Notes: generated from the sequence alone by a model not told the origin. 64,000 bases of DNA from Thermoanaerobaculia bacterium (GCA_038248205.1 JBBRUC010000001.1:32480-96479), one strand, 5' to 3'; counted from the stretch's first letter, positions 22,996 to 38,325 are shown. Made by a program: numbers and translations.

Positions 22996-23017
22996 CCGAG
23001 GGGAGACGGGACGAAAA

Positions 23018-23430: not shown

Positions 23431-23487
23431 GCGAAACTTCGATAAAGAGAGGGTCGGCGCCAAGGCGCCGACCTTCTCAAAGTCAAC

Positions 23488-26400
23488 CTAGTTGCGATGC
23501 GGTGCGCAGAGCAACCCGTTGTTGTAGTCGTCGAGCATCTCGTGCCACGGCGAGGCCTGATTCCAAGCCGAGCTGCTGCCGCGTACGTTGCTGCCGACCG
23601 GGTGGGTCTTCAGCCAGTTGTCGGCAGAGGTGATGATCGAGTCGATGCAGCTCGAGACGTTGCCGACCAGAACGTTCAACTTGGCCGCGATCAGCTGTTT
23701 GGCCAAATCGATCGTCTTGTCGCCCTTGCTCGGGGTGCCGAGAAGCGAGATCGCCTGGGAGACCGAGTAGGTCTTGTTGCCGATCTTGATGCTCTCGACC
23801 GGCCAGGCGCTCGCGTGGTTCTTCCAGTAGCCGATCGTGCCGGTACCCGGCGCCGGAGTGGTCGGCGGGCACTGGACGATGTCGACGTTGATGTCGCCTT
23901 GACCGGTGGTGGGCAGGGAGCCTCCCGAAGAGGGCTGCGTGACCACCGTCCACTTGTACCAACCGGAGGCCCCGTAGTTAAGGTTCTTGCCGTTGGCACC
24001 GACGCCGAGCTGGAACGCCGGCCCGGTGCGGGTGACGTTGATCACCGCGCCGCTGTTGCTGCTGAGTCCGGTCAGGGTTCCGTTGTACCCGGTGTAGTAG
24101 ATCCAGGTTCCCGTGTTGACCGGGCCGCCGTTCTCCGAGTAAGCCGAAGCCATGAGTTCCTTCTTCGGGCTACCGGCGGGGGTGACGGTCGTCCGGCCGG
24201 TGAAAGTGATGCTCACCGTCCAGGCGTTCAACGAGTTGGACAAGCTGCGCAACGTACCGTTCATGTTCGCCGTGCCGTTCGAGTTCTGAATGAACGAGCC
24301 CGGGGCCGGAGTGAACTGGTAATCGGTACCGATGCCCGGGAGCCAGAAGGCATGATTGGCTCCAGCGCCTTGGACCGACGGATCGTTGATCGCTTCGTCC
24401 ACACACTGCGGGTTATTGCTCGGGGAGTTGTAGCCGAAGTCTACGTCGAGCTTCGACTGACCGGCCGCGAGAGCGAACGCCGTGGTGTTCGCCGTGCCGA
24501 TGCCGTCGAGATCGTAGGTCTGCACATAGCCGGCCGGAACGGTCATCACGTCGACCGTCACCGTGTAGTTGCCGGAGAGCAGGTTCGAGAACAGGTAGTT
24601 CCCGTCACCGCTCGTGGTTACGACAGCGACCACGTTGCCGGAGCTGTTGCGCAGCACCACGTCGACGCCGTTGATTCCGAGCTCACCGGCGTCCTGAATG
24701 CCGTCGGCGTCGGTATCGGTCCAGACGCGGTCGCCGACCGAGGCCGTACCGCGGTAGCCGAAGTCAACGTTGAAGTTCGACTGATTGGCCGCGAGAGCGA
24801 CCGTCGCCTTGTTCGGGGTGCCCAGGCCATCGAGATCGTAGGTCTGGGTCAAACCTGCAGGCAGGGTAGAGGTGACGACCTGCACTGAGTAGGTGCCGGC
24901 CAGGAGGTTCTGGAACTGGTAGAGGCCGTCGCCCGCCGTGACCTTGGTGGCGATGACGTTGCCACCGGCGTCGAGCAGGTTGACGGTGACTCCGTTGATG
25001 CCGACTTCGAGCAGGTCCTGCGCGCCGTCGCCGTCGGAATCGATCCAGACCCGGTCACCGATCGAGCCGGTGCCGCGATAGCCGAAGTCGACGTCCGTAC
25101 GATTCTGGCCTCCGGTGATCGAAGCGGCGGCGATGTTCGCCGTCCCGGTTCCGTCGAGATCGTAGGTCTGGGTGAGGCCGGCGGGCAGCGTCGAAGACTC
25201 GACGCGGACCGAATAGCTTCCGGCCGCCAGGTTGGTGAAGGTGTAGTTACCGTCGCCACTGGTAATCGCCGTCTGGAGGACGACGCTACCTGAGCTAAGG
25301 AGCGAGACCGTGACGCCGTTCAGGCCGGACTCGCCGGGATCCTGGACGCCGTTGCCGTTGGTGTCGATCCACAGCCGGTCGCCGATCGAGCCGGTGCCGC
25401 GATAGCCGAAGTCGACGTCGTCGCGTTCCGCCTGAGCGAGCGTAAGCGTGGTGCTCGCGATGTGCGGGGTGGCAATTCCATCGAGATCGAACGTCGGGGC
25501 AAGACCCGCGGGCAGCGTCGAGGTCGCGACGCGGACCGAGTAGCTACCGAGCGGCAGATTGGCGAAGTTGTAGTTGCCGTTGCCGCTCGTCGCGGTGGTG
25601 GCAATGACGTTGCCGCCGTTGTCGAGCAGATCCAGGGTGACGCCGTTGATGCCGGACTCACTCGCGTCCTGGAGGCCATCGCCGTTTTCGTCGAGCCAGA
25701 TACGGTCGCCGATCGCGCCGACGCCCTTGTATCCGAAGTCGGCGTCGGTCCGGTTCTGGCCGGGGCCGAGCATCAGGTCGGTGAAGTTGACCGACGAGAT
25801 CCCGTCGAGGTCGTAACTCGCGGCGAGGCCGGCGGGCAGCGTTGCCGCTTCGATCCGCACCGAGTAGTGGCTCGACGGCAGGTTACCGAACGTGTAGTCG
25901 CCGTCGCCGCTGGTCACCCGGGTCGCCAAGACGTTGCCGCCCTGGTCGAGCAAGGAAACCGTGACGCCGTTGATCCCGTTTTCACCGGCATCTTGGATGC
26001 CGTCGGCGTCGAAGTCGAGCCAGACACGGTCGCCGATCGAGCCGGTACCGCGATAGCCGAAGTCGACGTCGGTCCGGTTCTGGCCGCCGATCAGGCCGAC
26101 CACGGCAAAGTTCGCCGTGCCGATGCCATCGAGGTCATAGGAGGGAACCAGACCGGTCGGGAGGGTGGCGGCTTCGACCCGCACGGCGTAGGAACCGCCC
26201 GGGAGGTTGCCAAAGGTGTAGTTGCCGTCGCCCGCGGTGAGCTGCGAGGCGATGACGTTGCCGCCGCTGTCGAGCAGTGTGACCGTGACGCCGTTCAAGC
26301 CGGCCTCACCGCCGTCCTGGATGCCGTCGTTGTTGAAATCGAGCCAGAGACGATCACCGATCGAGCCGGTGCCGCGATAGCCGAAGTCGACGTCGGCCCG

Positions 26401-29358
26401 GTTCTGGCCGCCCGCGAGGCTCGCCGCGGCGAGGTTCGCCGAGCCGATGCCGTCGAGGTCGTAGGTGGGCGCAAGGCCCGCCGGGAGAGTCGCCGCCACC
26501 ACCCGTACGGAGTAGTTGCCGGCGGGGAGATTGGCGAAGGTGTAGCCGCCGTCTCCGGCGGTTACCTGGGTCGCGAGAACGTTGCCGCCGTTGTCGAGAA
26601 GCTCCACAGTGACGCCGTTGATTCCGGCCTCCCCGGCGTCCTGGACGGTATCGGCGTCGAAATCGAGCCAGACGCGATCACCGATCGAGCCGGTGCCGCG
26701 ATAGCCAAAATCCACGTCGATCCGGTTCTGACCACCGGCCAGAGCGAACAAGGCGATGTGGGCCGTGGCGATGCCGTCGAGGTCGTAGGTCGGAGAGACT
26801 CCCGCCGGCAGGGTGGCCGAGACGACCCGGACCGAGTAGTTGCCCACCGGGAGGTTGGAGAAGGTGTAGTTGCCGTCGCCCGAAGTCACCTGCGATGCGA
26901 CGACGGTACCGCCGGAATTCAAAAGCTCGACGGTGATGCCGTTGAGCCCTGCTTCACCGCCGTCTTGGACGCCGTCGGCGTTGAAATCGAGCCAAACGCG
27001 ATCACCGACCGAAGCCGTGCCGCGATAGCCGAAGTCTACGTCCATCCGGCTCTGTCCGCCGATCAAGGAGACCGAAGCGACGTTGGCCGAGGCCAGACCG
27101 TCGAGGTCGTAGGTCTGGACCGAGCCGGCCGGAAGGGTCGCTGCCGCCACACGCACCGAATAACTTCCGGCGTTCAAGTTCGAGAAGGTGTAGTGGCCGT
27201 CGCCCGAGGTCACCTGGCTCGCGATGACGTTGCCGCCGTTGTCGAGCAACTCGACGGTGACGCCGTTGATGCCGGTCTCGCCGACACCCTGCAAGCCGTT
27301 GCCGTCGGCGTCGAGCCAAACGCGATCGCCGAGCGAACCGGTGCCGCGGTAGCCGAAGTCGACGTTGGTTTTGTTCTCGGCGGCCGCAAGAGAGAAGCTC
27401 GCAATGTTGGCCGAGCTTGTACCGTCGAGATCGAAGGTCGGGGCAACTCCCACCGGAAGGGTAGAGGTTACGACCCGCACCATGTAGCTGCCGGCGGCTA
27501 GATTGTCGAACAGATAGTCGCCGTCGCCGGTCGTTACCTGCGTGGCCAAGACGTTGCCGCCGTTGTCGAGGAGTTCGAGGGTGACGCCATTGATGCCGTT
27601 TTCGCCGCCATCCTGAATGCCGTCGCCGTTGGTGTCGAGCCAGACCCGGTCGCCAACCGAGGCGTCGTTGGCAGCCCCTTCGGAATAACCGAAGTCATAG
27701 GTGAGGACGTTGCCGTTGGTGAGCGTACGGGTGAGCGATTCGCCGCCCGTCGTCGAGGACTTACCCTCCAACGGCTGGCCGGGACCGAAGTTGCTCGCCG
27801 CGACCCGTACTTCATACGTTCCCGGCGAGTCCATGCCGAAGCAGTAGAGGCCGTTGGTGTCGGTACCCGTGTTGTTGGCTACGCACGCCGACCAGTTCGG
27901 GCTCGAAGTCTCGCCCGTGGTGGCCGTAGCGATCACCGATCCGTCGCTCGGACGGACCAGCTCCATCAGAACGCCCGGAATGCCCGCTTCACTCGGATCC
28001 AAAACACCCGGATTCGCTGTGTCCGCCCAGACGAAATCACCCAACAGATAGATCGATTCGTCCGAGCAGGCCGCCACGCGCGGCACATCGTCAGGATCCT
28101 CACCCGGGATCGGGGCGCGGGCCGGTCGCGTCGCACAGGTGTCCGCGAACCAGAAGTTCAGATTCGCGAGGTCCAAACCGATAATCGTGACTTTCCACAT
28201 ACCCGAGGGAAGAGTCGCGCCGCCGTAGACCCAATCCGCATCGCCGGCGAACGGCGAATTGATGCTCGCGATCAGGAACTGCTCCCATTCGAAGCTGCCC
28301 GAGGGGTTATCGTTGAAATAGATGTTGCCGTCCGGATCCGTCACTTCGTAGCGGACGCAGCCGATCCGGTTCGGATCGCCGGGCTCGCCGCGGCGGAAGG
28401 CATCCAAGTTGTTGTCATCCGGCGGTACGCCAGGGCCTTGGACCCCTTCCGGGTTGGCACCGGCGGTCGAGAAGGGGAAGCCGCTGTAGTCGGCGGCGGT
28501 ATCGAAGTCGTCCTCGTCCTCGCACGGATCGAGCGCCACGCCCGAGGGAGAGCCCACGGTCGAATTGGTACCGAAATCGAAGTCGCCGTCGAACATACGG
28601 AGTTCGGTTTCGCCGCCGGGCAGGGTGAAGAAGAACTCGAACGTGCCGTCGTAGGTCGTCGGCGCGGTGAGGAATCCGCCCGGGGGCGGAAACGTGCCCG
28701 GGTAAAGAATCGGGCCGTCGTTGAACAGCTGACGGAACGCGCCAACCAGGCCGAACTGCGGAGTACGGAAGGTCATCGGGTTCGAGGCCGCGACCTTGAT
28801 GTTGCTCTCAAGAACCTCGCCCGGGGCGCACGAGCCGTCGAGGCCGATCACCAAGTTATAGAAGTAGTTGCCGCTGGGCGCCTGGGCAATGGCCCCGTTT
28901 GTGACCGTCACAGCCCACCAATCGTTGTCGGGCATGGCGGCTGAGCTGGAAGTCCAGAGCGGCCCACTCGTCGGATTGACTCCGTTGCCGGTCCAGGTGC
29001 CGATCAGGTTGGCGGGGGCGGTGCTGCCGGTGCGCAGCGGATCCGCATAGAGGGAGTAGATGAGCTGGCGGGAGCCGGCGTCCCAATGCGGACGCGCGGC
29101 GCCATCGGCCATGCCGGTGTCGCCATCGAAGATGTTGACGTCGAACGTCGGGACCGACGCAGGCGCCGCCATGGCAATCTGGACGTTCTGCTCGAACGTC
29201 GCGATGCCGGCGCAACCGAAGCCCATGAAGCGACCGTCGGTGGCGCTTTCCGAGGGAAACGCCGCGAACGGCCCCGGTCCGATCTGAGCCCTCGCAGCGC
29301 CAAGGGCCGTCAGGGCCAGTAGCGCCAAAGTAGCGCACCTACTGTAAAACCTTCTCAT
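23488..29358 (-). CDS. Giant secreted repeat protein 1 (about 1956 aa): conserved N-terminal domain, about 11-12 SdrD-B/Cna-B-like Ca-binding repeats, one X repeat, conserved C-terminal domain
   Basis: Signal peptide MRRFYSRCATLALLALTALGAARAQ, with GGAG before ATG 29358. The roughly 600-aa N-terminal domain is shared with the two downstream paralogs. Tandem roughly 103-aa repeats read GDRVWLDxNGNGxQDxGExGINGVTVxLL...SGDGNYTFxNLPAGxYSVRV...LPAG..PTYDLDG...DVDFGYR, matching SdrD B-domain/Cna-B-like repeats with DxDxDG Ca sites. One roughly 200-aa Cys-bounded X repeat follows. The C-terminal domain GYWKNHASAWPV...LLCAPHRN is nearly identical in gene 2. Confidence 0.8.
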   Translation of the reverse strand: MRRFYSRCATLALLALTALGAARAQIGPGPFAAFPSESATDGRFMGFGCAGIATFEQNVQIAMAAPASVPTFDVNIFDGDTGMADGAARPHWDAGSRQLIYSLYADPLRTGSTAPANLIGTWTGNGVNPTSGPLWTSSSAAMPDNDWWAVTVTNGAIAQAPSGNYFYNLVIGLDGSCAPGEVLESNIKVAASNPMTFRTPQFGLVGAFRQLFNDGPILYPGTFPPPGGFLTAPTTYDGTFEFFFTLPGGETELRMFDGDFDFGTNSTVGSPSGVALDPCEDEDDFDTAADYSGFPFSTAGANPEGVQGPGVPPDDNNLDAFRRGEPGDPNRIGCVRYEVTDPDGNIYFNDNPSGSFEWEQFLIASINSPFAGDADWVYGGATLPSGMWKVTIIGLDLANLNFWFADTCATRPARAPIPGEDPDDVPRVAACSDESIYLLGDFVWADTANPGVLDPSEAGIPGVLMELVRPSDGSVIATATTGETSSPNWSACVANNTGTDTNGLYCFGMDSPGTYEVRVAASNFGPGQPLEGKSSTTGGESLTRTLTNGNVLTYDFGYSEGAANDASVGDRVWLDTNGDGIQDGGENGINGVTLELLDNGGNVLATQVTTGDGDYLFDNLAAGSYMVRVVTSTLPVGVAPTFDLDGTSSANIASFSLAAAENKTNVDFGYRGTGSLGDRVWLDADGNGLQGVGETGINGVTVELLDNGGNVIASQVTSGDGHYTFSNLNAGSYSVRVAAATLPAGSVQTYDLDGLASANVASVSLIGGQSRMDVDFGYRGTASVGDRVWLDFNADGVQDGGEAGLNGITVELLNSGGTVVASQVTSGDGNYTFSNLPVGNYSVRVVSATLPAGVSPTYDLDGIATAHIALFALAGGQNRIDVDFGYRGTGSIGDRVWLDFDADTVQDAGEAGINGVTVELLDNGGNVLATQVTAGDGGYTFANLPAGNYSVRVVAATLPAGLAPTYDLDGIGSANLAAASLAGGQNRADVDFGYRGTGSIGDRLWLDFNNDGIQDGGEAGLNGVTVTLLDSGGNVIASQLTAGDGNYTFGNLPGGSYAVRVEAATLPTGLVPSYDLDGIGTANFAVVGLIGGQNRTDVDFGYRGTGSIGDRVWLDFDADGIQDAGENGINGVTVSLLDQGGNVLATRVTSGDGDYTFGNLPSSHYSVRIEAATLPAGLAASYDLDGISSVNFTDLMLGPGQNRTDADFGYKGVGAIGDRIWLDENGDGLQDASESGINGVTLDLLDNGGNVIATTATSGNGNYNFANLPLGSYSVRVATSTLPAGLAPTFDLDGIATPHIASTTLTLAQAERDDVDFGYRGTGSIGDRLWIDTNGNGVQDPGESGLNGVTVSLLSSGSVVLQTAITSGDGNYTFTNLAAGSYSVRVESSTLPAGLTQTYDLDGTGTANIAAASITGGQNRTDVDFGYRGTGSIGDRVWIDSDGDGAQDLLEVGINGVTVNLLDAGGNVIATKVTAGDGLYQFQNLLAGTYSVQVVTSTLPAGLTQTYDLDGLGTPNKATVALAANQSNFNVDFGYRGTASVGDRVWTDTDADGIQDAGELGINGVDVVLRNSSGNVVAVVTTSGDGNYLFSNLLSGNYTVTVDVMTVPAGYVQTYDLDGIGTANTTAFALAAGQSKLDVDFGYNSPSNNPQCVDEAINDPSVQGAGANHAFWLPGIGTDYQFTPAPGSFIQNSNGTANMNGTLRSLSNSLNAWTVSITFTGRTTVTPAGSPKKELMASAYSENGGPVNTGTWIYYTGYNGTLTGLSSNSGAVINVTRTGPAFQLGVGANGKNLNYGASGWYKWTVVTQPSSGGSLPTTGQGDINVDIVQCPPTTPAPGTGTIGYWKNHASAWPVESIKIGNKTYSVSQAISLLGTPSKGDKTIDLAKQLIAAKLNVLVGNVSSCIDSIITSADNWLKTHPVGSNVRGSSSAWNQASPWHEMLDDYNNGLLCAPHRN
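24430..27700 (-). repeat. Tandem array of about 11 near-identical ~309-bp coding repeats (SdrD-B-like modules) inside giant gene 1; coordinates approximate
   Basis: Recurrent DNA strings such as GTCGCCGATCGAGCCGGTGCCGCGATAGCCGAAGTCGACGTCGG and GACGCCGTTGATGCCG recur with roughly 309-bp periodicity across this span. These are coding repeats, not CRISPR. Confidence 0.7.
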
Positions 29359-29701
29359 AACTCCATTCCCTTTCCCCGGCCAAAAGCATCGCCACGAAGG
29401 CGGGCGCGTCCGGTGCCCCAATGTTGCCGGGTGGGGGCCACCGAACCTCCAATCAAGTAGTCCGCTGCCAAAAATTGCGCAGCGCGAGAGCCAAAGATCG
29501 TCAGTCAACCCTTCGTAAGAGCAAAAAGGCAGTTCCATCTACGGCAAGTAGGAAACGACTCTTCCAAGACTGAGCGCCACATTGGGCTCGATGTTTTGGA
29601 CAGGCGGCACCCTTTGCCCTTCCGTTCAGTCGTTTAGTTGTTTAATGGGAACTTGATGGTTCCCGGGGCGGCTAAGACAATCCGCACTGTAACGAAAGGA
29701 C

Positions 29702-29719: not shown

Positions 29720-29908
29720 AGATATTTGGAGTTTTTCGATCGACCCCTGAGCGGGCTCGTCGGCGCCTGGAGGAACTTCGCGAAAGGGCGCCTTTCAATC
29801 GGGATGGGGGACGCCAGCCAGGAACCTCAAGCGATCCGAGGCGAACCATCAGAACGTGGCACCGCGAGGTGGGCGCTCTTAGAAGTGGATAGAGGAACTG
29901 CGGAAAGC

Positions 29909-29936
29909 GAAGGCCGGAGCCGAAGCGCCGGCCTTC
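29909..29936 (-). terminator. Hairpin just downstream of the giant gene 2 stop
   Basis: GAAGGCCGG-N10-CCGGCCTTC, a 9-bp stem, starts 10 nt after the TAG at 29946..29948. The U-tract is weak (GCTTTCC). Confidence 0.45.
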
Positions 29937-29945
29937 GCATCAAAA

Positions 29946-32900
29946 CTAGTCGCGGTGCGGAGCGCAGAGCAACCCGTTGTTGTAGTCGTCGAGCATGTTG
30001 TGCCACGGCGAGGCCTGAGACCAGGCCGAGCTGCTGCCCCGGACGTTGCTGCCGACCGGATAGGTCTTCAGCCAGTTGTCCGCCGAAGTGATGGTCGCGC
30101 TGATGCAGCTCGACACGTTTCCGACCAGGACGTTCAACTTGGCCGCGATCAACTGCTTGGCCAAATCGATCGACTTGTCGCCCTTGCTCGGCGTGCGGAG
30201 CAGGTTGATCGCCTGAGAGACCGTGTAGGTCTCGTTACCGATCTTGATGCTGGTGACCGGCCAAGCGCTCGCGTGGTTCTTCCAGTAACCGATCGTACCG
30301 GTGCCCGGAGCGGGCGTGGTCGGCGGGCACTGGCCGATGTCGACGTTGATGTCGCCCTGGCCGCTGGTCGGCAGAGCCGAGCCCGACGTCGGCTGGGTCA
30401 CCACCGTCCAGTTCAGCCAGCCCGAACCGCCGTAGTGGAGGTTCTTGCCGTTGGCGCCCGTGCCCACCTGGAACGCCGGACCGACGCGCACCAGATTGAG
30501 CTTGGCACCCGCGGCGCTGCCGGTTCCCGTGAGGGTACCGGTGGCACCCGTGTAGTAGTACCAGGTGGCAGTCTTGATCGGACCGCCGTTCTCGCTGTAG
30601 GCGCTTGCCGCAAGCTCCTTCTTCGGGTTGCCGGCGGGAGCCGTCGTGGTGAAGCCCGAGAAGGTGACGTCCACCGCGAAGCCAAAGTTCGGGTTCGAGG
30701 TGCTTACCAGGGTGCCGGTCAAACGGGCTGTACCGTCGGCCTTCTCGACCAACGAGCCGTTGCCCGGTGAGAAGACGAGATCGGTCGAAATGCCCGGCAG
30801 CCAGATCGCGTGATGGGCGCTCGTTGCGTTGACCGACGAATCGTTGTCGGCCTTGTTGGCGCACTGCACGCAGTCGAAGATGTCGAGGTTGATGTCGCCT
30901 TGGCCGGTCGAGGGATAGCTGCTGCCCGAGGGCTGGGTCGCCGTCCAATGAATCCAGCCGGACGCCCCATAGTGGAGGTTCTTGCCGTTGGCGCCGACGC
31001 CCACTTGGAACGACGGACCGACGTTGGTGATGCTCAAGACGACGCCGGCATTGCCGTCGATGCCCGTCAAGACTCCGCCGAGGTAGCCGTAGTAGCGCCA
31101 GGTGGCCGGATCGATCGGTCCGCCGTTATTGACGTACGCGCTCCCGGCGAGTTCCTTCTTCGGGTTGCCCGGCCCCGGGGTCGTGGTGCGGGCGAAGAAG
31201 TTGATAGCGACCGTGAAGGCGTTGTTCGGATTCGACTGGCTCCGCATCGTACCGGTCAGCGTTGCCGAGCCGTCCGCCTTCTCGAGGAAGGCGCCAGGGT
31301 CGGGGGTGAAGGAGTAGTCGGTGCCGATACCGGGCAGCCACAACGCGTGATTGGCCGCGCTGCCGTTGTACGCCGGATCGTTGTTAGCCTGGTTGGCGCA
31401 GCTCTTCGCGTCGGTCTTGGACTGGTAGCCGAAATCGACGTCGGAGCGGTTCTGGCCCGCAGCCAGTGCCACCGTCGCGCGATGGGCGGTTCCGAGACCA
31501 TCCAGGTCGTAGGTTTGAACGTAACCGGCCGGAAGCGTCGCGCTTTCGACCCGCACCGAGTAGCTACCGGCCGGCAGATTGCCGAACAGGTAGTTGCCGT
31601 TGCCCGAAGTCACCTGGCTGGCGAGGGCGTTGCCACCCGTGTCGAGCAATGTGACGGTGACGCCGTTGATCCCGGCCTCGCCGCCGTCCTGCACCCCGTT
31701 GCCGTTGGCGTCTTCCCACACCCGATCGCCGATCGTCCCTTGCCCCCTGTAGCCAAAGTCGACGTCGGTCCGGTTCTGACCGCCGGTTAAAGCAGCCGTC
31801 GCGATGTGAGCGGTGCCGACTCCATCCAGGTCGTAGCTCGGAACGAGCCCCGCCGGAACGGTCGCCGATTCAACACGGACTTTGTACGTCCCCGCCGGAA
31901 GGTTCGCGAAGGTGTAGTTGCCGTTGCCCGTGGTCACCTGGGTCGCCAGGGCCACGTTGGCAGAGTTGAGGAGAGTAACGGTGACGCCGTTGATCCCGAC
32001 CTCGCCGCCGTCCTGCACACCGTTGGCGTTGAAATCGAGCCAGACCCGGTCACCGAGCGAGGCCGTACCCCGATAGCCGAAGTCCACGTCGGTCCGGTTC
32101 TGAGCCGCCGTCAACGAGGCCGCCGCCGTATGCGGAGTGCCGATCCCGTCGAGGTCGTAGCTCGGGGCCAGACCCGCCGGCAGCGTTGAGGAAACCACCC
32201 GGACCGTATAGTTGCCGGCCGAGAGGTTGGTGAAGTTGTAGGTGCCGTCACCCGACGTCACCTGGGAAGCCACCACGGTGCCGCCGGAATTCAGCAGCTC
32301 GACCGTCACGCCGTTGATCCCGACTTCGCCGCCGTCCTGCACCCCATTGGCGTTGAAATCGAGCCAGACCCGATCGCCGAGCGAGGCCGTGCCCCGGTAG
32401 CCGAAGTCCACGTCCGTCCGGTTCTGTCCCGCCGCCAGAGCGAACGAGGCGCTGTTCGCCGTCCCGAGGCCGTCCAAATCGAACGTCGCTGCCAAGCCTG
32501 CGGGAAGGGTCGCCGGAACCACCTCGACCCGATAGGTACCCGCGACGACGTGGGCGAAGGTGTAGATCCCGTCGCCAGCCGTCACCTGGGTCTCGACGGT
32601 CACGCCGTGCACAGTGTCCACCAAGCGAACCGTCACGCCGTTGATGCCGGTTTCGCCCGCATCCTGGACGCCGTTGCCGTTCGTGTCGTTCCAAACCCGG
32701 TCACCGATCGAGCCGTAGCTGACCGGCGGGCACTCGAACAGGTCGAGGTTGATGTCGCCCTGGCCCGAGCCGACGAGGGTCTCGCCGCCCGACGGCTGGC
32801 TCGTCACCTGCCACTGGTACCAACCCGAGCCACCGAAGTGGAGGTTCTTGTTGTTGGCGCCGACTCCCAGCTGGAAGGCCGGTCCGGTGCTGGAAATCGA

Positions 32901-35900
32901 GATCGAGCCGCCCGCATAGGCGCTCACCCCGACCAGGGTTCCCGAGTAGGACGTGTAGTAGCTCCAGCTCGCCGAATCCGCCACGCCGCCGTTCTCGACG
33001 TAGGCACCAGCGGAAAGCTCCTTCTTCGGGCTGCCCGGAGGAGTGGTCGCGGTGTAGCCCGAGAACAGGATGTCCACCTGGAACCCGTGGGTCGGGCTCG
33101 AAAGGCTGTACATCGTTCCCGTCAGGTGCGCCGTGCCGTCCGCGTTGCGAACGAACGTGCCGTCGACCGGACTGAACTGGAAGTCGGTACCGATCCCCGG
33201 CAGCCAGAACGCGTGGTTGTACGTCGAGCCCAAAACCGCGGGATCGTTGTTGGCGTTGTTTGCGCAGGACGAGCAGTTGCCGAAGTCGACGTTGATGTCA
33301 CCCTGGCCGGACTGCGTGAGCGCCGGACCGCTCGCGGGCTGCGAGGTGACGTTCCACACGAACCAGGCCGACGCCCCGTCGAGCAGGTTTTTGTTGTTGG
33401 CACCCGTGCCGAGCTGGAAGGCGGAGCCGGTGTTGGAAATGCCGATCACCGATCCGGCATACGCATCGATGCCGGTGAGCGTACCGGTGAAGCTCGTGTA
33501 GTACGTAAACGTCGCCGTGTTGACGGGTCCGCCGTTTTCCGAATAGGCGTTTCCGGAGAGCTCTTTCTTCGGGCTGCCCGGAGGAGCCGTCGCGGTCAAG
33601 CCGCTGAGCACCACGTCGACGACGAAGGCCTCGCTCGAATTCGCCGTCCGCCGCACGATGCCCGTCAGGCGAGCGGTTCCGTCCGCCCGCTGTACGAAGC
33701 TGCCGGTCGCCGGAGCGAACTGGAAGTCCAAACCGATGCCGGGCAGGTAGAACGCGTGCCCATCCGGGTTGCTGCCGTAGGCCGGATTGTTGAACGAGCC
33801 CTGCGCGCAGGTCTCGGTGTCGTGCGTGCGATAGCCGAAATCCACGTCGGTGCGATTCTGACCGGCGGCCACGGTGGCCGTTGCCCGGTGCGGTGTCGCG
33901 ACACCGTCGAGGTCATAGGTCGGGCCGAAGCCGGCCGGCAACGTGGTCGAATCGACCACCACCGTGTAGCTTCCGGCCGCCAGGTTGCCGAAGGTGTAGT
34001 TGCCGTCGCCCGAGGTCACCTGCGTCGCGACGACCGTGTTGGTCCCGTCGAGCAGGCGAACGGTGACGCCGTTGATCCCAACCTCGCCGGCATCCTGCAC
34101 ACCGTCGCCGTCGAGATCGCTCCAGACCCGATCGCCCAAGCTGCCGGGCGCCGGAGGCTGCCGGTAGCCGAAATCCACGTCGGTCCGGTTCTGCGACTGC
34201 GCGAGAGCGAAGCTCGCGATGTTCGCCGTACCGGTGCCGTCCAGGTCATAGGTCTGGGCCAAGCCCGCGGGCAGCGTCGCGGTCACCACGCGAACCGAGT
34301 AGTTGCCGGCCGCCAGGTTGTCGAACAAGTAGTTGCCGTTCCCCGAGGTGATTTGGCTGGCCACGACGTTGCCGCCGTTGTCGAGCAGATCAACCGTGAC
34401 GCCGTTGATGCCGTTCTCCCCGCCATCTTGAACGCCGTCGCCATCGGCATCGAGCCAGATCCGGTCGCCGACCGAGGCGTCGTTCGTCGCCGCCTCGGCG
34501 TAACCGAAGTCATACGTTAGCTCGTTGTCGGCCGAAAGCGTTCGGGTGAGCGACTCGCCGCCCGTCGTCGAGGACTTACCTTCCAACGGCTTGCCCGGGC
34601 CGAAGTTGCTTGCCGCGACCCTCACCTCGTAGGTGCCGGGAGCGTCCATGCCGAAGCAGTAGAGACCGTTGATATCGGTTCCCGTGTTGTTCGCCACGCA
34701 CGCCGACCAGTTCGGGCTCGTCGTGTCGCCCGTCTTGGCCGTAGCGATCACCGATCCGTCGCTCGGACGAACCAGCTCCATCAGAACGCCCGGAATGCCC
34801 GCTTCGCCCGGATCCAACACGCCCGGGTTTCCGGTGTCCGACCAGACGAAATCGCCTATCAGGTAGATGGATTCATCCGAACAAGCCGCCACGCGCGGAA
34901 CGTTGTCCGGATCTTCCCCCGGGATCGGATCGCGGGCCGGGCGCGTCGCACAGGTGTCCGCGAACCAGAAATTCAGATTCGCTAGGTCCAGCCCGATGAT
35001 CGTGACTTTCCACATCCCCGAGGGAAGCGTCGCGCCGCCGTAGACCCAATCCGCATCGCCGACGAACGGCGAATTGATGCTCGCGATCAGGAACTGCTCC
35101 CACTCGAAGCTGCCCGAGGGGTTGTCGTTGAAATAGATGTTGCCGTCTGGATCCGTCACTTCGTAGCGGACGCAGCCGATCCGATTCGGATCGCCGGGCT
35201 CGCCACGGCGGAAGGCATCCAAGTTGTTGTCATCAGGGGGAATACCGGGGCCTTGGACCCCTTCGGGGTTGGCGCCGGTGGTCGAGAAGGGGAAGCCGCT
35301 GTAGTCGGCGGCAGTATCGAAGTCGTCCTCGTCCTCGCACGGATCGAGCGCTACGCCGGAAGGCGAGCCGACGGTCGAGGCGGTACCGAAATCGAAGTCG
35401 CCGTCGAACATCCGCAGCTCGGTTTCTCCGCCGGGAAGAGTGAAGAAGAACTCGAACGTGCCGTCATACGTGGTCGGCGCGGTGAGGAACCCGCCCGGGG
35501 GCGGGAAGGTACCGGGATAGAGAATTGGACCGTCATTGAAGAGCTGACGAAACGCGCCAACCAGACCGAACTGCGGAGTCCGGAAGGTCATCGGGTTCGA
35601 GGCCGCGACCTTGATGTTGCTCTCAAGAACCTCGCCCGGGGCGCACGAGCCGTCGAGGCCGATCACCAAGTTATAGAAGTAGTTGCCACTGGGCGCCTGG
35701 GCAACGGCCCCGTTGGTGACCGTCACGGCCCACCAATCGTTGTCCGGCATGGTGCTTGAGCTGGAAGTCCAGAGCGGCCCACTCGTCGGATTGGCTCCGT
35801 TGCCGGTCCAGGTGCCGATCAGATCGGCCGGCGAGGTACTGCCATTGCGCAACGGGTCCGCATACAGAGAGTAAATGAGCTGGCGATTGCCGACGTCCCA

Positions 35901-36182
35901 ATGAGGACGGGCGGCGCCGTCGGGCATCCCGGTTTCGCCGTCGAAGATGTTGACGTCGAACGTAGCATTGGCGGCCGGCGCAGCCATCGCGATTGTGACG
36001 TTCTGCTCGAACGTTGCAATCCCGGCGCAACCGAAGCCAAGGAAACGTCCATCCGTGGCGCTCTGCGACGGAAACGCCGCAAAGGGACCCGGCCCTATCT
36101 GGGCTGATGCTCTACCGAACCCCAACAAGGCTCCTATCGCCACCAAGAGTACAGCTCTCAAAACTTGTCGCTGAGCTTTCAT
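29946..36182 (-). CDS. Giant secreted repeat protein 2 (about 2078 aa): N-terminal domain, 2 SdrD-B, 2 X repeats, 4 SdrD-B, 3 X repeats, C-terminal domain
   Basis: Signal peptide MKAQRQVLRAVLLVAIGALLGFGRASAQ, starting at ATG 36182. The N-terminal 600 aa and the C-terminal 130 aa are over 90% identical to gene 1 (for example QIGPGPFAAFPS(E/Q)SATDGRF(M/L)GFGCAGIATFEQNV). Five copies of the roughly 200-aa X repeat read C..N.NDPA..G....HAFWLPGIGTD..F.P..G.F......GTA.LTG.......P...F.V...F.G.T.T.PPGSPKKEL...AY.ENGG.......YYT...GTL.G.......I....TGPAFQLG.GAN.KNL..G.SGW..W.V.SQP.......GQGDIN.D...C. Confidence 0.8.
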   Translation of the reverse strand: MKAQRQVLRAVLLVAIGALLGFGRASAQIGPGPFAAFPSQSATDGRFLGFGCAGIATFEQNVTIAMAAPAANATFDVNIFDGETGMPDGAARPHWDVGNRQLIYSLYADPLRNGSTSPADLIGTWTGNGANPTSGPLWTSSSSTMPDNDWWAVTVTNGAVAQAPSGNYFYNLVIGLDGSCAPGEVLESNIKVAASNPMTFRTPQFGLVGAFRQLFNDGPILYPGTFPPPGGFLTAPTTYDGTFEFFFTLPGGETELRMFDGDFDFGTASTVGSPSGVALDPCEDEDDFDTAADYSGFPFSTTGANPEGVQGPGIPPDDNNLDAFRRGEPGDPNRIGCVRYEVTDPDGNIYFNDNPSGSFEWEQFLIASINSPFVGDADWVYGGATLPSGMWKVTIIGLDLANLNFWFADTCATRPARDPIPGEDPDNVPRVAACSDESIYLIGDFVWSDTGNPGVLDPGEAGIPGVLMELVRPSDGSVIATAKTGDTTSPNWSACVANNTGTDINGLYCFGMDAPGTYEVRVAASNFGPGKPLEGKSSTTGGESLTRTLSADNELTYDFGYAEAATNDASVGDRIWLDADGDGVQDGGENGINGVTVDLLDNGGNVVASQITSGNGNYLFDNLAAGNYSVRVVTATLPAGLAQTYDLDGTGTANIASFALAQSQNRTDVDFGYRQPPAPGSLGDRVWSDLDGDGVQDAGEVGINGVTVRLLDGTNTVVATQVTSGDGNYTFGNLAAGSYTVVVDSTTLPAGFGPTYDLDGVATPHRATATVAAGQNRTDVDFGYRTHDTETCAQGSFNNPAYGSNPDGHAFYLPGIGLDFQFAPATGSFVQRADGTARLTGIVRRTANSSEAFVVDVVLSGLTATAPPGSPKKELSGNAYSENGGPVNTATFTYYTSFTGTLTGIDAYAGSVIGISNTGSAFQLGTGANNKNLLDGASAWFVWNVTSQPASGPALTQSGQGDINVDFGNCSSCANNANNDPAVLGSTYNHAFWLPGIGTDFQFSPVDGTFVRNADGTAHLTGTMYSLSSPTHGFQVDILFSGYTATTPPGSPKKELSAGAYVENGGVADSASWSYYTSYSGTLVGVSAYAGGSISISSTGPAFQLGVGANNKNLHFGGSGWYQWQVTSQPSGGETLVGSGQGDINLDLFECPPVSYGSIGDRVWNDTNGNGVQDAGETGINGVTVRLVDTVHGVTVETQVTAGDGIYTFAHVVAGTYRVEVVPATLPAGLAATFDLDGLGTANSASFALAAGQNRTDVDFGYRGTASLGDRVWLDFNANGVQDGGEVGINGVTVELLNSGGTVVASQVTSGDGTYNFTNLSAGNYTVRVVSSTLPAGLAPSYDLDGIGTPHTAAASLTAAQNRTDVDFGYRGTASLGDRVWLDFNANGVQDGGEVGINGVTVTLLNSANVALATQVTTGNGNYTFANLPAGTYKVRVESATVPAGLVPSYDLDGVGTAHIATAALTGGQNRTDVDFGYRGQGTIGDRVWEDANGNGVQDGGEAGINGVTVTLLDTGGNALASQVTSGNGNYLFGNLPAGSYSVRVESATLPAGYVQTYDLDGLGTAHRATVALAAGQNRSDVDFGYQSKTDAKSCANQANNDPAYNGSAANHALWLPGIGTDYSFTPDPGAFLEKADGSATLTGTMRSQSNPNNAFTVAINFFARTTTPGPGNPKKELAGSAYVNNGGPIDPATWRYYGYLGGVLTGIDGNAGVVLSITNVGPSFQVGVGANGKNLHYGASGWIHWTATQPSGSSYPSTGQGDINLDIFDCVQCANKADNDSSVNATSAHHAIWLPGISTDLVFSPGNGSLVEKADGTARLTGTLVSTSNPNFGFAVDVTFSGFTTTAPAGNPKKELAASAYSENGGPIKTATWYYYTGATGTLTGTGSAAGAKLNLVRVGPAFQVGTGANGKNLHYGGSGWLNWTVVTQPTSGSALPTSGQGDINVDIGQCPPTTPAPGTGTIGYWKNHASAWPVTSIKIGNETYTVSQAINLLRTPSKGDKSIDLAKQLIAAKLNVLVGNVSSCISATITSADNWLKTYPVGSNVRGSSSAWSQASPWHNMLDDYNNGLLCAPHRD
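31400..32700 (-). repeat. Tandem SdrD-B-like coding repeats (4 units) inside giant gene 2; a further 2 units lie at about 33830..34560; coordinates approximate
   Basis: Same ~309-bp unit as the gene 1 array. Confidence 0.6.
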
Positions 36183-36318
36183 CCGATCACCCTTTCTCCG
36201 ATGGTCCAAAAGACTTCGCGCGCTTTCCGAACTGCCGCCCGACAAGACTCGCAAACCTAAGTAAAACCAAGAGTTTGGCCTGGAACTACCCGCTTGTAGG
36301 GTGATCTTTTTCGGCGAT

Positions 36319-36336
36319 CGTCAGGAAATCGTCAGG
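36319..36336 (-). promoter_or_regulatory. Heptameric direct repeat pair CGTCAGG-N4-CGTCAGG upstream of giant gene 2
   Basis: Exact copy of the gene 1 upstream element, with the same 11-bp spacing, GAG extension and downstream ATTT. Confidence 0.4.
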
Positions 36337-36591
36337 AGGACCATTTTGCCCATCGCGCAAAGGTTCGGACGAGAAGGGAGGTAGCAGGATCTACAGGGCG
36401 AAGCGTGGGTCCTAGGGGACTGCCGGAGGGGGGACTGCGTGGAAGTGTGGAAGTGGAAAACGAAGGCGGGGGCAGGGCGCGGCCGGGCAAGGGGTCCGGT
36501 CTTGGAGCCGGCTTGAACGGTGGGCTCCTGCCCAAGACTTCGAGAGATCCGGCCCACAAGGCGCTCCGGGTCGGCCGCTCCCAGCAAAGAT

Positions 36592-38325
36592 CTACCGCGC
36601 CCTGGAACTCCGCATCCCGGAGAAACCGAAGTCGAAGGTCAAAACGTTGGCCGCGGTGAGGGTGCGGGTCAAAGAGCTGTTCCCGGTCGTCGCCACTTGG
36701 CCGAAGAGCGCCCCTCCCGAGGTGAAGTTACGCGCCGCCACACGAACCTCGTACGTGCCCGGAACATCCTGACCAAAGCAGTACAGACCGTTCGAGTCAA
36801 CGCCCGTGCTGCTCGCCCGGCAGGCTGCCCAGTTCGGACTCGTCGGGTCGCCCGTGACCGCGGTGGCCAGTACCACGCCGTCGCTCGGACGGATCAACTC
36901 CATCACCACACCCGGCATGCCCACCTCGCCCGGATCCAGAACCCCCGGATTCGCCGTGTCCGCCCAGACGAGATTTCCCAAGAGATAAATCGATTCGTCC
37001 CCGCAGGCTGGTACCCGCGGCACGTCGATCGGATCTTCGCTCGGTAGCGGCTCATGAGCCGGACGCGTCGCGCAAGTCTTCGCATACCAGAAGTTCAGAT
37101 TGGCCAAGTCCAAGCCTACGATCGAAACCTTCCAGCTTCCCGCGGGAAGCAGGGCGTCGCCGTAGACATAGTCCGCATCCCCGACGAACGGCGAGTTGAC
37201 GCTCGCGATCAGAAATTGCTCCCACTCGAAGCTGCCCGAAGGGTTGTCGTTGTAATAGACATTGCCGACCGGATCCTGGACTTCGTAGCGTACGCAACCG
37301 ATGCGGTTCGGATCCCCCGGCTCACCGCGCCGGAATGCGTCGAACTTGTTGTCGTCGCTGGGAATGCCTGGCCCCTGGACCCCTTCGGGATTGGCTGCGA
37401 CGACGACGAATGGAAAGTTGCCGTAATCGGCAGGCGTATCGGGGTCGTCCTCGTCCGCACACTCGTCGAGAAACAGGCCCGAAGGCACTCCGCGGGCCGC
37501 ATCGGTGCCGAAATCGAAATCGCCATCGATCAGGCGCAGCTCCGTCTCGGATGCGGAAAGATTAAAATAGAGGTCGAAAGAGCCGTCGTAGGTGGTCGGC
37601 GCGGAAACGAAACTACCGGTAAGCGGCGCCGTCGGCAAGGAGCCCGGATAGAGGATCGGCAGGTCTGCTGCGAGCTGTCGTAGCGCGCCGACCAAACCGA
37701 AGTGAGAGGTGTTGAAGCTGACGGGGTAGGAAGCCGCGATCTTGAAGTTGCTTTCCAATATTTCGCCTACTTCGCAGGCTCCATCCGTATCGATCACCAG
37801 ATTGTAAAAGTAGTTTCCGCTTGGCGTCTGGGCGATGGCAGCGTTGGTGATTGTCACCCCCCACCATGCGTTGTCCGGCATGTTCGCCGCGGTGGAAGTC
37901 CACAGCGGACCGGCGATTGGATTTCTCTTATTGCCGTACCAAACACCGATTAAATCGGCCGGCAAAATACTCCCTTTGCGCGACGGATCGGCGTGCAGCG
38001 CAAATTTCAGCTGGCGGGTGCCAAGATCCCAGTGGGCGGTGTCCATACCGTCGAGCCCACCGGTTTCTCCATCGAATAGATTGAGGGAGAAGGTCGAGGT
38101 GGACGCGGGCACGGCAAGCGCTACCTGAACATTGCGTTCCAAGGTCGCGAGGCCCGCACAGGCAAGGCCTAGGAATCGCCCGTCCGTAGCGCTCTCCGAC
38201 GGGAAAGACGCGAGAGGCTTTGGCCCCAATTGGCCTCGCGCGGAAACGAACCCCAGGAGAGTTCCAAGGATCGAGAAAAGAGCGACCCGCAAAACATTCG
38301 ACAACGAACGAATCACGCTACTCAT
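36592..38325 (-). CDS. Truncated paralog 3 (about 577 aa): N-terminal domain of the giant proteins only, no repeat region or C-terminal domain
   Basis: Signal peptide MSSVIRSLSNVLRVALFSILGTLLGFVSARGQ. Roughly 50% identical to the N-terminal domains of genes 1 and 2 (FDGDFDFGT, NPEGVQGPGIP.DDN, DAFRRGEPGDPNRIGCVRYEV, GSFEWEQFLIAS, WKVSIVGLDLANLNFW, YCFG.D.PGTYEVRVAA.NF). AAGGGGGG Shine-Dalgarno before ATG 38325. Confidence 0.75.
   Translation of the reverse strand: MSSVIRSLSNVLRVALFSILGTLLGFVSARGQLGPKPLASFPSESATDGRFLGLACAGLATLERNVQVALAVPASTSTFSLNLFDGETGGLDGMDTAHWDLGTRQLKFALHADPSRKGSILPADLIGVWYGNKRNPIAGPLWTSTAANMPDNAWWGVTITNAAIAQTPSGNYFYNLVIDTDGACEVGEILESNFKIAASYPVSFNTSHFGLVGALRQLAADLPILYPGSLPTAPLTGSFVSAPTTYDGSFDLYFNLSASETELRLIDGDFDFGTDAARGVPSGLFLDECADEDDPDTPADYGNFPFVVVAANPEGVQGPGIPSDDNKFDAFRRGEPGDPNRIGCVRYEVQDPVGNVYYNDNPSGSFEWEQFLIASVNSPFVGDADYVYGDALLPAGSWKVSIVGLDLANLNFWYAKTCATRPAHEPLPSEDPIDVPRVPACGDESIYLLGNLVWADTANPGVLDPGEVGMPGVVMELIRPSDGVVLATAVTGDPTSPNWAACRASSTGVDSNGLYCFGQDVPGTYEVRVAARNFTSGGALFGQVATTGNSSLTRTLTAANVLTFDFGFSGMRSSRAR

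What the first reader, a model, noticed from the sequence alone, without database searches (positions are those of the whole stretch)
23488..38325. Three tandem paralogous genes (about 5.9 kb, 6.2 kb, 1.7 kb) for giant secreted repeat proteins with a shared unrecognized roughly 600-aa N-terminal domain
All three start with signal peptides and share a Gly/Asp/aromatic-rich N-terminal domain (motifs FDGDFDFGT, NPEGVQGPGIP.DDN, DAFRRGEPGDPNRIGCVRYEV, NDNPSGSFEWEQFLIAS, WKV.I.GLDLANLNFW) that I cannot assign to a known family. Genes 1 and 2 are over 90% identical in this domain and share an identical roughly 125-aa C-terminal domain (GYWKNHASAWPV...DLAKQLIAAKLNVLVGNVSSCI...NGLLCAPHR). They differ radically in the number and order of internal repeat modules, which suggests recent duplication followed by repeat shuffling. 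Gene 3 is a diverged, N-domain-only version. The first two are each followed by a hairpin and preceded by long leader regions (410 bp and 340 bp). Together they occupy about 23% of the window, which implies a major investment in surface or adhesive function.
Basis: seen in the sequence. Interest (0 to 1): 0.7.

Follow-up and report, generated by a model that had tools for sequence, protein, structure and literature searches.

The report
Giant secreted proteins tied to lasso-peptide cluster
Three neighbouring genes encode large exported repeat proteins with an undescribed head domain, and across many uncultured bacterial phyla such genes sit beside a lasso-peptide gene cluster and, in part of the family, a dedicated activator.

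Summary
Three minus-strand genes encode signal-peptide proteins: g3 36592-38325 (577 aa), g2 29946-36182 (2078 aa) and g1 23488-29358 (1956 aa). All share an N-terminal head.

Corrections:
- The new domain is about 410 aa. The next 120 aa are a divergent SdrD_B domain.
- The long repeats are ordinary SdrD_B domains (Pfam PF17210).
- A 180-aa beta-barrel module (X) and a 120-aa helical C-terminal domain are also unannotated.
- The g1 and g2 C-terminal domains are 89% identical, not identical.
- The copies differ by 16% in DNA, so this is not an assembly artefact.

The head matches nothing in Pfam, NCBIfam or PDB. It defines a family of about 511 clusters at 50% identity, all from uncultured bacteria in many phyla. 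It almost always follows the signal peptide, and SdrD_B usually follows it.

The family sits in a conserved island. In 44 of 73 related loci, lasso-peptide genes lie within 10 kb: precursor, cyclase, kinase, B1 and B2. The window has the full set directly after g1.

A SARP-like activator lies beside the genes in 26 loci. An exact TCCTGACG repeat at 11-bp spacing precedes g1, g2 and 30 further sites.

Most likely these are calcium-stiffened extracellular binding proteins co-regulated with, and perhaps working with, a phosphorylated lasso peptide. Their function is untested.

The parts
36592..38325 (-). g3: signal peptide, head domain (aa 32-441) and divergent SdrD_B (aa 449-569); 577 aa
   Evidence: It is 100% identical to database protein P0006.
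29946..36182 (-). g2: signal peptide, head, SdrD_B variant, 2 SdrD_B, 2 X, 4 SdrD_B, 2 X, C-terminal domain; 2078 aa
23488..29358 (-). g1: signal peptide, head, SdrD_B variant, 10 SdrD_B, 1 X, C-terminal domain; 1956 aa
34881..36101 (-). Head (N) domain of g2, 407 aa. The equivalents are 28066-29286 in g1 and 37003-38232 in g3. It forms two beta-sandwich lobes joined by an acidic loop region.
24424..27663 (-). Ten tandem SdrD_B repeats of g1. In g2 the repeats lie at 33825-34478 and 31419-32714.
   Evidence: Pfam PF17210 E 9.5e-232
23869..24405 (-). X module of g1: a 180-aa up-and-down beta barrel bracketed by two Cys. In g2 there are four, at 32730-33809 and 30327-31400.
23491..23850 (-). C-terminal domain of g1 (GYWKNH...LCAPHRN), mostly helical, 120 aa. 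In g2 it lies at 29949-30308.
   Evidence: It forms most of 1073 database hits and usually lies at the extreme C-terminus.
36319..36336 (-). CCTGACG-N4-CCTGACG direct repeat, 137 nt before the g2 start codon
29702..29719 (-). CCTGACG-N4-CCTGACG direct repeat, 344 nt before the g1 start codon, with TACAGT 10 nt downstream
38602..40848 (+). Divergent regulator: winged helix, BTAD and AAA_16 domains (SARP/AfsR-like); 748 aa
   Evidence: A homologue lies next to head-domain genes in 26 loci.
29907..29938 (-). GC-rich hairpin after the g2 stop codon (GCGAAGGCCGG...CCGGCCTTCGC, then TTTCC)
   Evidence: read directly from the sequence
23410..23473 (-). Two strong hairpins after the g1 stop codon; the second is followed by ATTTTTTTT
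23018..23248 (-). Lasso precursor: leader YSSPRLIVFGDLSGLTQ, core AAGNFGNPDGFFGSRANSKPDPGKGTRS
21310..23091 (-). Lasso cyclase (asparagine-synthase-like)
   Evidence: NF033535 E 7.7e-56 and Pfam Asn_synthase
20326..21276 (-). HprK-related kinase-like protein
   Evidence: weak match. Homologues occur in 29 loci.
20010..20444 (-). PqqD-family B1 (leader-binding) protein
   Evidence: NF033536 E 9.5e-12
19535..20026 (-). B2 leader peptidase (Transglut_core3)
   Evidence: PF13471 E 4.1e-20
18816..19541 (-). Signal-peptide protein resembling a small outer-membrane beta barrel; ends ...LRAHF
   Evidence: weak OMP_b-brl match. The family recurs in 35 loci.

Best explanation
g3, g2 and g1 encode Sec-exported, acidic, calcium-binding rod proteins of a widespread but unannotated family.

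Each protein has four kinds of part:
- a 410-aa two-lobed beta-sandwich head right after the signal peptide;
- a stalk of SdrD_B domains;
- in the giant forms, disulfide-bracketed beta-barrel X modules;
- a helical C-terminal domain.

[quoted passage not shown] Transcription of g2 and g1 is most likely switched on by the divergently encoded SARP-like activator. It would bind two TCCTGACG repeats spaced 11 bp apart, about 9 nt upstream of a -10-like element.

Shown here:
- the gene and domain anatomy;
- the size and spread of the family;
- the repeat box and its strict position and orientation;
- the linkage to the regulator and to the lasso genes.

Inferred:
- the proteins reach the cell surface or the matrix;
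- the stalk is stiffened by calcium as in staphylococcal B domains;
- the head binds a ligand;
- the proteins act together with the lasso peptide, for example by capturing or displaying it, or as the adhesive output of a circuit in which the peptide takes part.
For: Anatomy.

Family:
- 511 clusters at 50% identity (E<=1e-3) among 1.84 billion representatives, with the head starting at about residue 25-40 in nearly all.
- 194 loci in GTDB species genomes; the 73 loci fetched are all MAGs, from many phyla.
- Architectures are N, N-S, N-S-C and giants of more than 3700 aa.

Extracellular location:
- Signal peptides are present.
- Paired cysteines co-occur: 27/27, 29/29 and 36/42.
- A Kapaibacterium relative carries a T9SS sorting domain (Por_Secre_tail 30.8 bits, above the cut-off of 27). 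Other relatives carry PA14, VWA and DUF11 modules.

Calcium: 9 D-x-[DN]-x-[DN]-G-x-x-D-type motifs in g1 and 6 in g2, with acidic residues at about twice the level of basic ones. The B-domain literature is PMC6232131.

Regulation:
- The exact 14-base pattern occurs twice in the window, both times in the leaders of g1 and g2.
- Over all sequence held there are 32 distinct sites, all on the gene strand upstream of head-domain genes. About 0.013 would be expected by chance.
- 17 of the 19 genome loci with a box also show the regulator homologue.
- SARP sites are heptamer direct repeats with 4-nt spacers, giving 11-bp units (PMC10972967).

Lasso linkage:
- The window has all the components.
- 44 of 73 loci have at least one component and 32 have at least two.
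- 58 precursor-like ORFs match the YxxPxLxxxGxxxxxTx leader, nearly all with Asp/Glu at core position 7-10, mostly 8 or 9.
- Reverse test: loci found through the cyclase carry a family gene next to it in 8 of the 8 close-to-moderate cases that have upstream sequence. None of 6 distant cyclases with full flanks do.
Against: - No experiment exists, and every relative comes from an uncultured organism.
- There is no route across the outer membrane in the window proteins. They lack a T9SS, PEP-CTERM, LPXTG, autotransporter or RTX signal.
- g3 and its closest relative (L011) lack the repeat box.
- In the window, two strong hairpins separate g1 from the lasso genes, and no box precedes the precursor gene. 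Co-regulation with the peptide genes is therefore not shown here.
- 29 of 73 loci show no lasso gene within the sequence held. Many of these are cut by contig ends, but not all.
- Chloroflexota and Kapaibacteriota loci have neither the regulator nor the box.
- The winged-helix match of the regulator is below Pfam's cut-off (23.1 against 26.2 bits).
Confidence: 0.6

Rival explanations
1. These are ordinary surface adhesins or matrix proteins with no functional tie to the lasso peptide. The neighbourhood reflects a shared regulator, or a genomic island that travels together.
For: - Terminators lie between g1 and the precursor gene.
- No box precedes the lasso genes in the window.
- 29 of 73 loci have no lasso gene in the sequence held.
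- The accessory modules are typical of adhesins.
Against: - Linkage persists across at least seven phylum-level groups with rearranged gene orders.
- It holds in the reverse direction for one cyclase clade only.
- In L055 a box precedes the cyclase and precursor genes, and a head-domain gene follows in the same direction.
Confidence: 0.25
2. The head is an extracellular enzyme, such as a polysaccharide- or peptide-acting hydrolase or lyase. The stalk merely spaces it from the cell.
For: - Invariant polar residues: D54, D69, D82, K164, S329, E335, D372 and N375.
Against: - There is no invariant His.
- The many conserved Asp/Asn/Gly loops look like metal sites.
- Partner modules are binding modules, not catalytic ones.
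Confidence: 0.1
3. The proteins serve the peptide pathway itself, as an export, sequestration or self-protection factor that replaces the usual ABC exporter.
For: - No ABC transporter family recurs among the neighbours, whereas the small outer-membrane-type protein does.
- Linkage to the cluster is tight.
Against: - Sizes of 2000-3700 aa with variable repeat numbers, and several tandem paralogues per locus, are unusual for an immunity or export factor.
- The proteins have no membrane-spanning segments other than the signal peptide.
Confidence: 0.1
4. The tandem copies are an assembly artefact of one repetitive gene.
For: The region is repeat-rich.
Against: - 16% nucleotide divergence between g1 and g2; the longest exact shared stretch is 107 bp.
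- The leaders differ and are not alignable with each other.
- The same two-gene order with matching leaders occurs in another genome.
Confidence: 0.01

Closest known systems
Staphylococcal Sdr/MSCRAMM adhesins (SdrC, SdrD, SdrE)
   Same: - Signal peptide, an N-terminal ligand-binding region, then tandem calcium-binding B domains (Pfam SdrD_B).
- The profile of the region after the head matches SdrD and UafA structures.
   Different: - The head is unrelated to the A region.
- There is no Ser-Asp repeat and no LPXTG anchor.
- The host is a diderm Acidobacteriota bacterium.
- NCBIfam scores are far below cut-off: 532 against 2500 and 464 against 1700.
Kinase-containing lasso-peptide clusters (paeninodin type; PMC9266682)
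   Same: - Split B1/B2, an asparagine-synthase-like cyclase and an HprK-related kinase.
- The window precursor ends in Ser, the residue that PadeK phosphorylates.
   Different: - Described clusters hold no large secreted repeat protein. A full-text search for 'lasso peptide' with 'SdrD' gave no paper.
- The window kinase matches the NCBIfam models only weakly.
- No ABC exporter lies adjacent.
SARP and SARP-LAL activators of Streptomyces (ActII-ORF4, AfsR, PimR)
   Same: - Winged helix plus BTAD plus NTPase architecture.
- The candidate site consists of direct heptamer repeats with 4-nt spacers just upstream of a -10-like element (PMC10972967).
   Different: - Found in Acidobacteriota and a few other non-actinomycete MAGs.
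- The repeat sequence is TCCTGACG rather than TCGAGxx.
- The genes directly behind the boxes encode secreted proteins, not biosynthetic enzymes. Binding is untested.
Giant repeat adhesins of diderm bacteria (LapA, SiiE, MpIBP) - comparison from general knowledge
   Same: Several thousand residues, a calcium-stiffened stalk of Ig-like repeats, and terminal binding modules.
   Different: Those lack a Sec signal peptide and leave through type I secretion with a C-terminal RTX signal. Neither feature is present here.

Membership tests
MSCRAMM Sdr adhesins | Tandem SdrD_B (CnaB-like, calcium-binding) repeats | tested here: met
   PF17210 E 9.5e-232 (11 stretches) in g1 and 2.2e-147 (7 stretches) in g2
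MSCRAMM Sdr adhesins | A region, Ser-Asp repeat region and full-length family score | tested here: not met
   NCBIfam SdrD scores 532 bits against a cut-off of 2500, matching over the B-repeat region only. No SD repeat is visible in the translations.
MSCRAMM Sdr adhesins | C-terminal LPXTG sortase signal | tested here: not met
   The proteins end ...NNGLLCAPHRN/D, with no LPXTG and no hydrophobic tail.
T9SS cargo proteins | C-terminal Por_Secre_tail sorting domain | tested here: not met
   None at the C-terminus of g1-g3. The only hit (E 3.2e-8) lies inside an SdrD_B repeat at aa 589-632. A Kapaibacterium relative (L029) does carry one.
PEP-CTERM / exosortase substrates | C-terminal PEP motif, transmembrane helix and basic tail | tested here: not met
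   Absent from g1-g3. Small single-X proteins elsewhere carry PF07589.
Type I secreted RTX adhesins | No Sec signal peptide; C-terminal GGxGxDxUx repeats | tested here: not met
   Sec signal peptides are present and no RTX family appears in the Pfam or NCBIfam scans.
Outer-membrane 8-stranded beta barrels (for the X module) | Fold similarity | tested here: met
Outer-membrane 8-stranded beta barrels (for the X module) | Membrane insertion as a terminal or stand-alone barrel | tested here: inconclusive
   - X occurs in tandem pairs between soluble repeats and is bracketed by two Cys.
- Soluble barrels (avidins, YceI, AOC-like) match almost as well.
- Model coordinates could not be inspected to see which face is hydrophobic.
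Lasso-peptide biosynthetic gene cluster (context) | Precursor with a YxxPxLxxxGxxxxxTx leader and an Asp/Glu ring acceptor at core position 7-9 | tested here: met
   Window ORF 23018-23248: leader YSSPRLIVFGDLSGLTQ, core A1...D9
Lasso-peptide biosynthetic gene cluster (context) | Cyclase, B1 (PqqD) and B2 (transglutaminase-like) genes | tested here: met
   NF033535 E 7.7e-56, NF033536 E 9.5e-12 and PF13471 E 4.1e-20. The cyclase and B1 scores are below NCBIfam's strict cut-offs.
SARP regulators (context) | OmpR-type winged helix plus BTAD domain | tested here: met
   BTAD 87 bits (cut-off 22.1). Trans_reg_C 23.1 bits, just below its cut-off of 26.2.
SARP regulators (context) | Binds heptamer direct repeats at 11-bp spacing overlapping the -35 region | not testable with these tools
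   A matching site architecture is conserved, but binding was not measured.

The most novel reading that the evidence does not exclude
The head-plus-stalk proteins are dedicated extracellular partners of a clade of phosphorylated lasso peptides. The calcium-rich head (or the C-terminal domain) would capture or display the peptide at the cell surface. The SARP-like activator would tie their expression together. That would give these lasso peptides a structural, adhesive or signalling role rather than an antibiotic one.
Probability: 0.3. Interest if true: 0.85.

Novelty: new variant of a known kind. Interest (0 to 1): 0.68.

Why it matters
The natural roles of most lasso peptides are unknown, and their clusters are usually read as small self-contained antibiotic pathways.

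A large exported calcium-binding protein that accompanies one whole clade of these clusters across many phyla gives a concrete, testable partner for the peptide. In Acidobacteriota it also comes with a recognisable activator and DNA box.

The work also defines three unannotated domain families that could be added to domain databases:
- the head;
- the X barrel;
- the C-terminal domain, which accounts for most of 1073 database hits, including archaeal ones.

Finally, it shows SARP-type control outside actinomycetes. The same repeat box, exact over its 14 specified bases, is kept from Thermoanaerobaculia to a Deltaproteobacteria genome.

Tried and rejected
- Pfam and NCBIfam at relaxed thresholds gave nothing for the head, X and C-terminal domains.
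- PDB sequence searches, single-sequence and profile, matched only the SdrD_B part.
- Foldseek against PDB on the X+C model gave nothing below E 0.1. The C-terminal domain therefore has no identified structural neighbour.
- The afdb50 library was not available.
- MAFFT kept splitting X-only sequences across the C-terminal domain. A balanced set of native fragments worked.
- Rfam on 29300-38700 gave one sub-threshold chance hit.
- The g1 leader does not fold better than shuffled sequence (z 0.19).
- The three leaders are not alignable with each other.
- The exact-product look-up for g3 found no contig, although g3 equals P0006.
- The idea that the asparagine-synthase-like neighbour was an exosortase-system amidotransferase was dropped. 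The lasso cyclase model scores much higher, and precursor, B1 and B2 genes are present.
- Reading the N-terminus of the big proteins as a lasso core was rejected. The first Asp/Glu after the signal-peptide cut lies at position 13, and separate canonical precursor genes exist.


Full report
**1. What is there**

Three long ORFs lie head to tail on the minus strand. I chose ATG starts that follow GGAG-like ribosome sites and that open Sec-type signal peptides. This gives g3 at 36592-38325 (577 aa), g2 at 29946-36182 (2078 aa) and g1 at 23488-29358 (1956 aa).

The window has about 65% G+C, and g1 and g2 have a GC3 of 0.84, typical of real genes here.

**2. Domain anatomy**

Pfam recognises only SdrD_B (PF17210): 11 stretches in g1, 7 in g2 and 1 in g3. 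NCBIfam matches the staphylococcal SdrC/SdrD models over the repeat region only, far below cut-off.

Marker motifs and home-made profiles give these layouts:
- g1: signal peptide, head (about aa 25-431), a Cys-containing divergent SdrD_B, ten canonical SdrD_B, one X module, then the C-terminal domain.
- g2: signal peptide, head, SdrD_B variant, 2 SdrD_B, 2 X, 4 SdrD_B, 2 X, then the C-terminal domain.
- g3: signal peptide, head, SdrD_B variant.

Identities:
- The g1 and g2 heads are 94.6% identical, and g3 is 69% identical to both.
- The g1 and g2 C-terminal domains are 89% identical.

**3. Artefact check**

- g1 and g2 share 84% nucleotide identity over the first 2.3 kb.
- The longest exact shared run is 107 bp, and the longest internal exact repeats are 41 bp or less.
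- Synonymous codon differences outnumber non-synonymous ones, 127 to 56.
- The leaders do not align with each other.

The duplication is real and under purifying selection.

**4. The three unassigned domains**

*Head.*
- Nothing matches it in Pfam, NCBIfam or PDB sequences.
- With a 52-sequence alignment, AlphaFold gives a confident model (pLDDT 91.5, pTM 0.91). It has two beta-sandwich lobes and a 75-residue acidic loop region holding the FDGDFDFGT, DEDDFDT and PPDDN motifs.
- Three cysteine pairs are present or absent together across the family. This fits disulfides in an exported protein.

*C-terminal domain.*
- The domain is mostly helical and has no detectable PDB neighbour.
- It accounts for most of 1073 database hits.
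- It usually sits at the extreme C-terminus of proteins that carry SdrD_B, DUF7507 or CBM96.
- It also occurs in tandem copies in a Geoalkalibacter protein and in a Methanoperedens (archaeal) protein.

**5. The family**

A word-indexed search found 84 relatives of the head. An exhaustive phmmer search of 1.84 billion representatives found 511 at E<=1e-3 and 121 at E<=1e-30. In nearly all, the head starts at about residue 25-40.

A scan of one genome per GTDB species found 194 loci. The 73 loci fetched are all from metagenome-assembled genomes of:
- Acidobacteriota (Thermoanaerobaculia, Holophagales)
- Chloroflexota
- Armatimonadota
- Kapaibacteriota and Chlorobiota
- Bacteroidota
- Deltaproteobacteria
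- Caldisericales

The nearest relative is a Thermoanaerobaculia MAG, with the head 83% identical and the regulator 87% identical. The window therefore comes from that class.

Architectures range from N alone, N-S and N-S-C (about 625 aa) to giants of more than 3700 aa.

Tandem paralogues are common, with up to five in a row (L054, L067).

Alternative tails include a T9SS sorting domain in a Kapaibacterium relative (30.8 bits, cut-off 27), DUF11/DUF7507, PA14, VWA and DUF7305. No catalytic domain was seen.

This pattern is what one expects of an extracellular binding head on a modular stalk.

g3 equals database protein P0006, which carries no name. Named relatives are called 'hypothetical' or 'SdrD B-like domain-containing'.

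**6. The leaders hold a conserved box**

CCTGACG-N4-CCTGACG occurs exactly twice in the window, at 29702-29719 and 36319-36336. Both copies are on the gene strand, in the g1 and g2 leaders. Those leaders are otherwise unrelated to each other.

Across all sequence held (1.78 Mb) there are 32 distinct exact sites. All lie on the gene strand upstream of head-domain genes. About 0.013 would be expected by chance.

The consensus is T-CCTGACG-nTtT-CCTGACG, followed about 9 nt later by cAnacT, a -10-like element.

The divergent neighbour gene (38602-40848) encodes a winged helix, BTAD and AAA_16 protein. Its homologue lies next to head-domain genes in 26 loci, and 17 of the 19 genome loci with a box also have it.

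Heptamer direct repeats with 4-nt spacers, giving 11-bp units, are the classical SARP site (PMC10972967). I therefore infer that this regulator activates g2 and g1. This is not tested.

g3 and its nearest relative (L011) have no box.

**7. The lasso-peptide cluster**

Two strong hairpins follow g1. After them comes a complete lasso-peptide cluster on the same strand:

| Gene | Coordinates | Evidence |
|---|---|---|
| Precursor | 23018-23248 | Leader YSSPRLIVFGDLSGLTQ; core AAGNFGNPDGFFGSRANSKPDPGKGTRS, with Asp9 as ring acceptor and a C-terminal Ser |
| Cyclase | 21310-23091 | NF033535 E 7.7e-56 |
| HprK-related kinase-like protein | 20326-21276 | Weak NCBIfam match |
| B1, PqqD family | 20010-20444 | NF033536 E 9.5e-12 |
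| B2 | 19535-20026 | PF13471 E 4.1e-20 |
| Small outer-membrane-type protein | 18816-19541 | Weak OMP_b-brl match |

In paeninodin-type clusters the kinase phosphorylates the C-terminal Ser of the precursor (PMC9266682).

The neighbourhood is not peculiar to this genome:
- 44 of 73 loci have at least one lasso component within the fetched 10-kb flanks, and 32 have at least two. Gene orders vary, and the loci span the phyla listed above.
- Many of the remaining 29 loci are cut by contig ends or filled by a giant gene.
- 58 precursor-like ORFs match the canonical leader motif. Nearly all have Asp/Glu at core position 7-10, mostly 8 or 9.

A reverse test used a cyclase profile against metagenome contigs:
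- All 8 loci with usable upstream sequence have a family gene adjacent (L077-L080, L082, L084, L087, L094). Seven of their cyclases are 42-70% identical to the window's. L094 is an exception at only 27%.
- None of six loci with 27-29% identical cyclases and full flanks do (L101, L103, L105, L106, L119, L120).

The head-domain proteins thus mark mainly one clade of lasso clusters.

No ABC exporter family recurs among the neighbours.

A full-text search for 'lasso peptide' together with 'SdrD' returned no paper. One metagenomic study lists an unexplained 2118-bp hypothetical gene beside acidobacterial precursor genes. I could not check that gene (PMC9064862).

**8. History of the paralogues**

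- The g1 leader aligns at 74% to the leader of the second tandem gene in L005, with 30-nt identical blocks.
- The box-proximal stretch of the g2 leader is near-identical to the corresponding stretch in L004, the first L005 gene and L007.
- Yet the heads are more alike within a genome (94.6% here, 86.2% in L005) than between positional orthologues (76-78%).

This fits an old duplication with gene conversion of the head better than a recent duplication.

**9. Interpretation**

Shown:
- the anatomy;
- three unannotated domain families;
- a phylum-spanning family;
- a conserved box;
- linkage to a SARP-like regulator and to one clade of lasso clusters.

Inferred:
- export to the surface or the matrix;
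- a calcium-stiffened stalk, as in staphylococcal B domains (PMC6232131);
- a ligand-binding head;
- activation by the regulator through the box;
- some functional coupling to the lasso peptide.

The nature of that coupling is open. It could be capture or display of the peptide, an adhesive output of a circuit that includes the peptide, or simple co-regulation.

How the proteins would cross the outer membrane is unexplained.

Noticed in passing
window 29359-29690; L005 9402-9925: The long g1 leader shares 74% identity with the leader of the second tandem gene in L005. This includes a 30-nt identical block (TCTCGCGCTGCGCAATTTTTGGCAGCGGAC) that can form a short hairpin. The leader as a whole does not fold better than shuffled sequence (z 0.19).
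   Followed up: partly
window 48532-50391, 50569-53085, 53550-55565: About 25-30 kb from the lasso genes lie three genes: an ABC exporter (ABC_membrane plus ABC_tran), an 838-aa protein with a tryptophan-halogenase domain, and an S9 prolyl-oligopeptidase with PD40 repeats. S9 is the peptidase family to which lasso isopeptidases belong (from general knowledge). No link to the cluster was tested.
   Followed up: no
window 40900-41433 and 41797-44340; L004, L007: A DinB-family gene and an 847-aa Ser/Thr protein kinase follow the SARP-like regulator. They are conserved in the same place in the two closest genomes, at 81% and 78% identity.
   Followed up: partly
window 16739-18712: groES and groEL lie next to the small outer-membrane-type gene. 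Relatives of both chaperonin genes recur in 10-20 of the loci examined, so this looks like lineage synteny.
   Followed up: partly
L005 aa 2323-2493 of ORF 1806-9284; also L014, L018, L022, L061: A different unassigned 170-aa C-terminal module (SFSNNDG...TRIRFR...FKVD.V.ID..C) replaces or follows the C-terminal domain in several relatives, sometimes in tandem. Its only Pfam hint is a sub-threshold reelin subrepeat B match.
   Followed up: partly
proteins P0087, P0100 and others: The GYWKNH C-terminal domain also occurs as two or three internal tandem copies in a Geoalkalibacter protein. It also occurs in a Candidatus Methanoperedens protein. It is therefore not just a bacterial C-terminal sorting tag.
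   Followed up: partly
proteins P0088-P0104, P0119, P0122, P0127, P0148: The X barrel also occurs as two-copy proteins of about 500 aa, one labelled Planctomycetota. It occurs too as single-copy proteins of about 240 aa that end in a PEP-CTERM signal.
   Followed up: partly
window 23488-36182: g3 is present in the large protein collection as P0006 (100% identical, from a 118,520-nt NCBI contig, unnamed). g1 and g2 did not appear in searches that should have found them, so the giant genes seem to be missing from that collection.
   Followed up: partly
window 60001-62000: G+C drops to 0.566 against about 0.65 elsewhere in the window.
   Followed up: no
window 36592-38325 and 18816-23248: g3 (GC3 0.725) and the lasso genes (GC3 0.58-0.81) have lower third-position G+C than g1 and g2 (0.84).
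   Followed up: no
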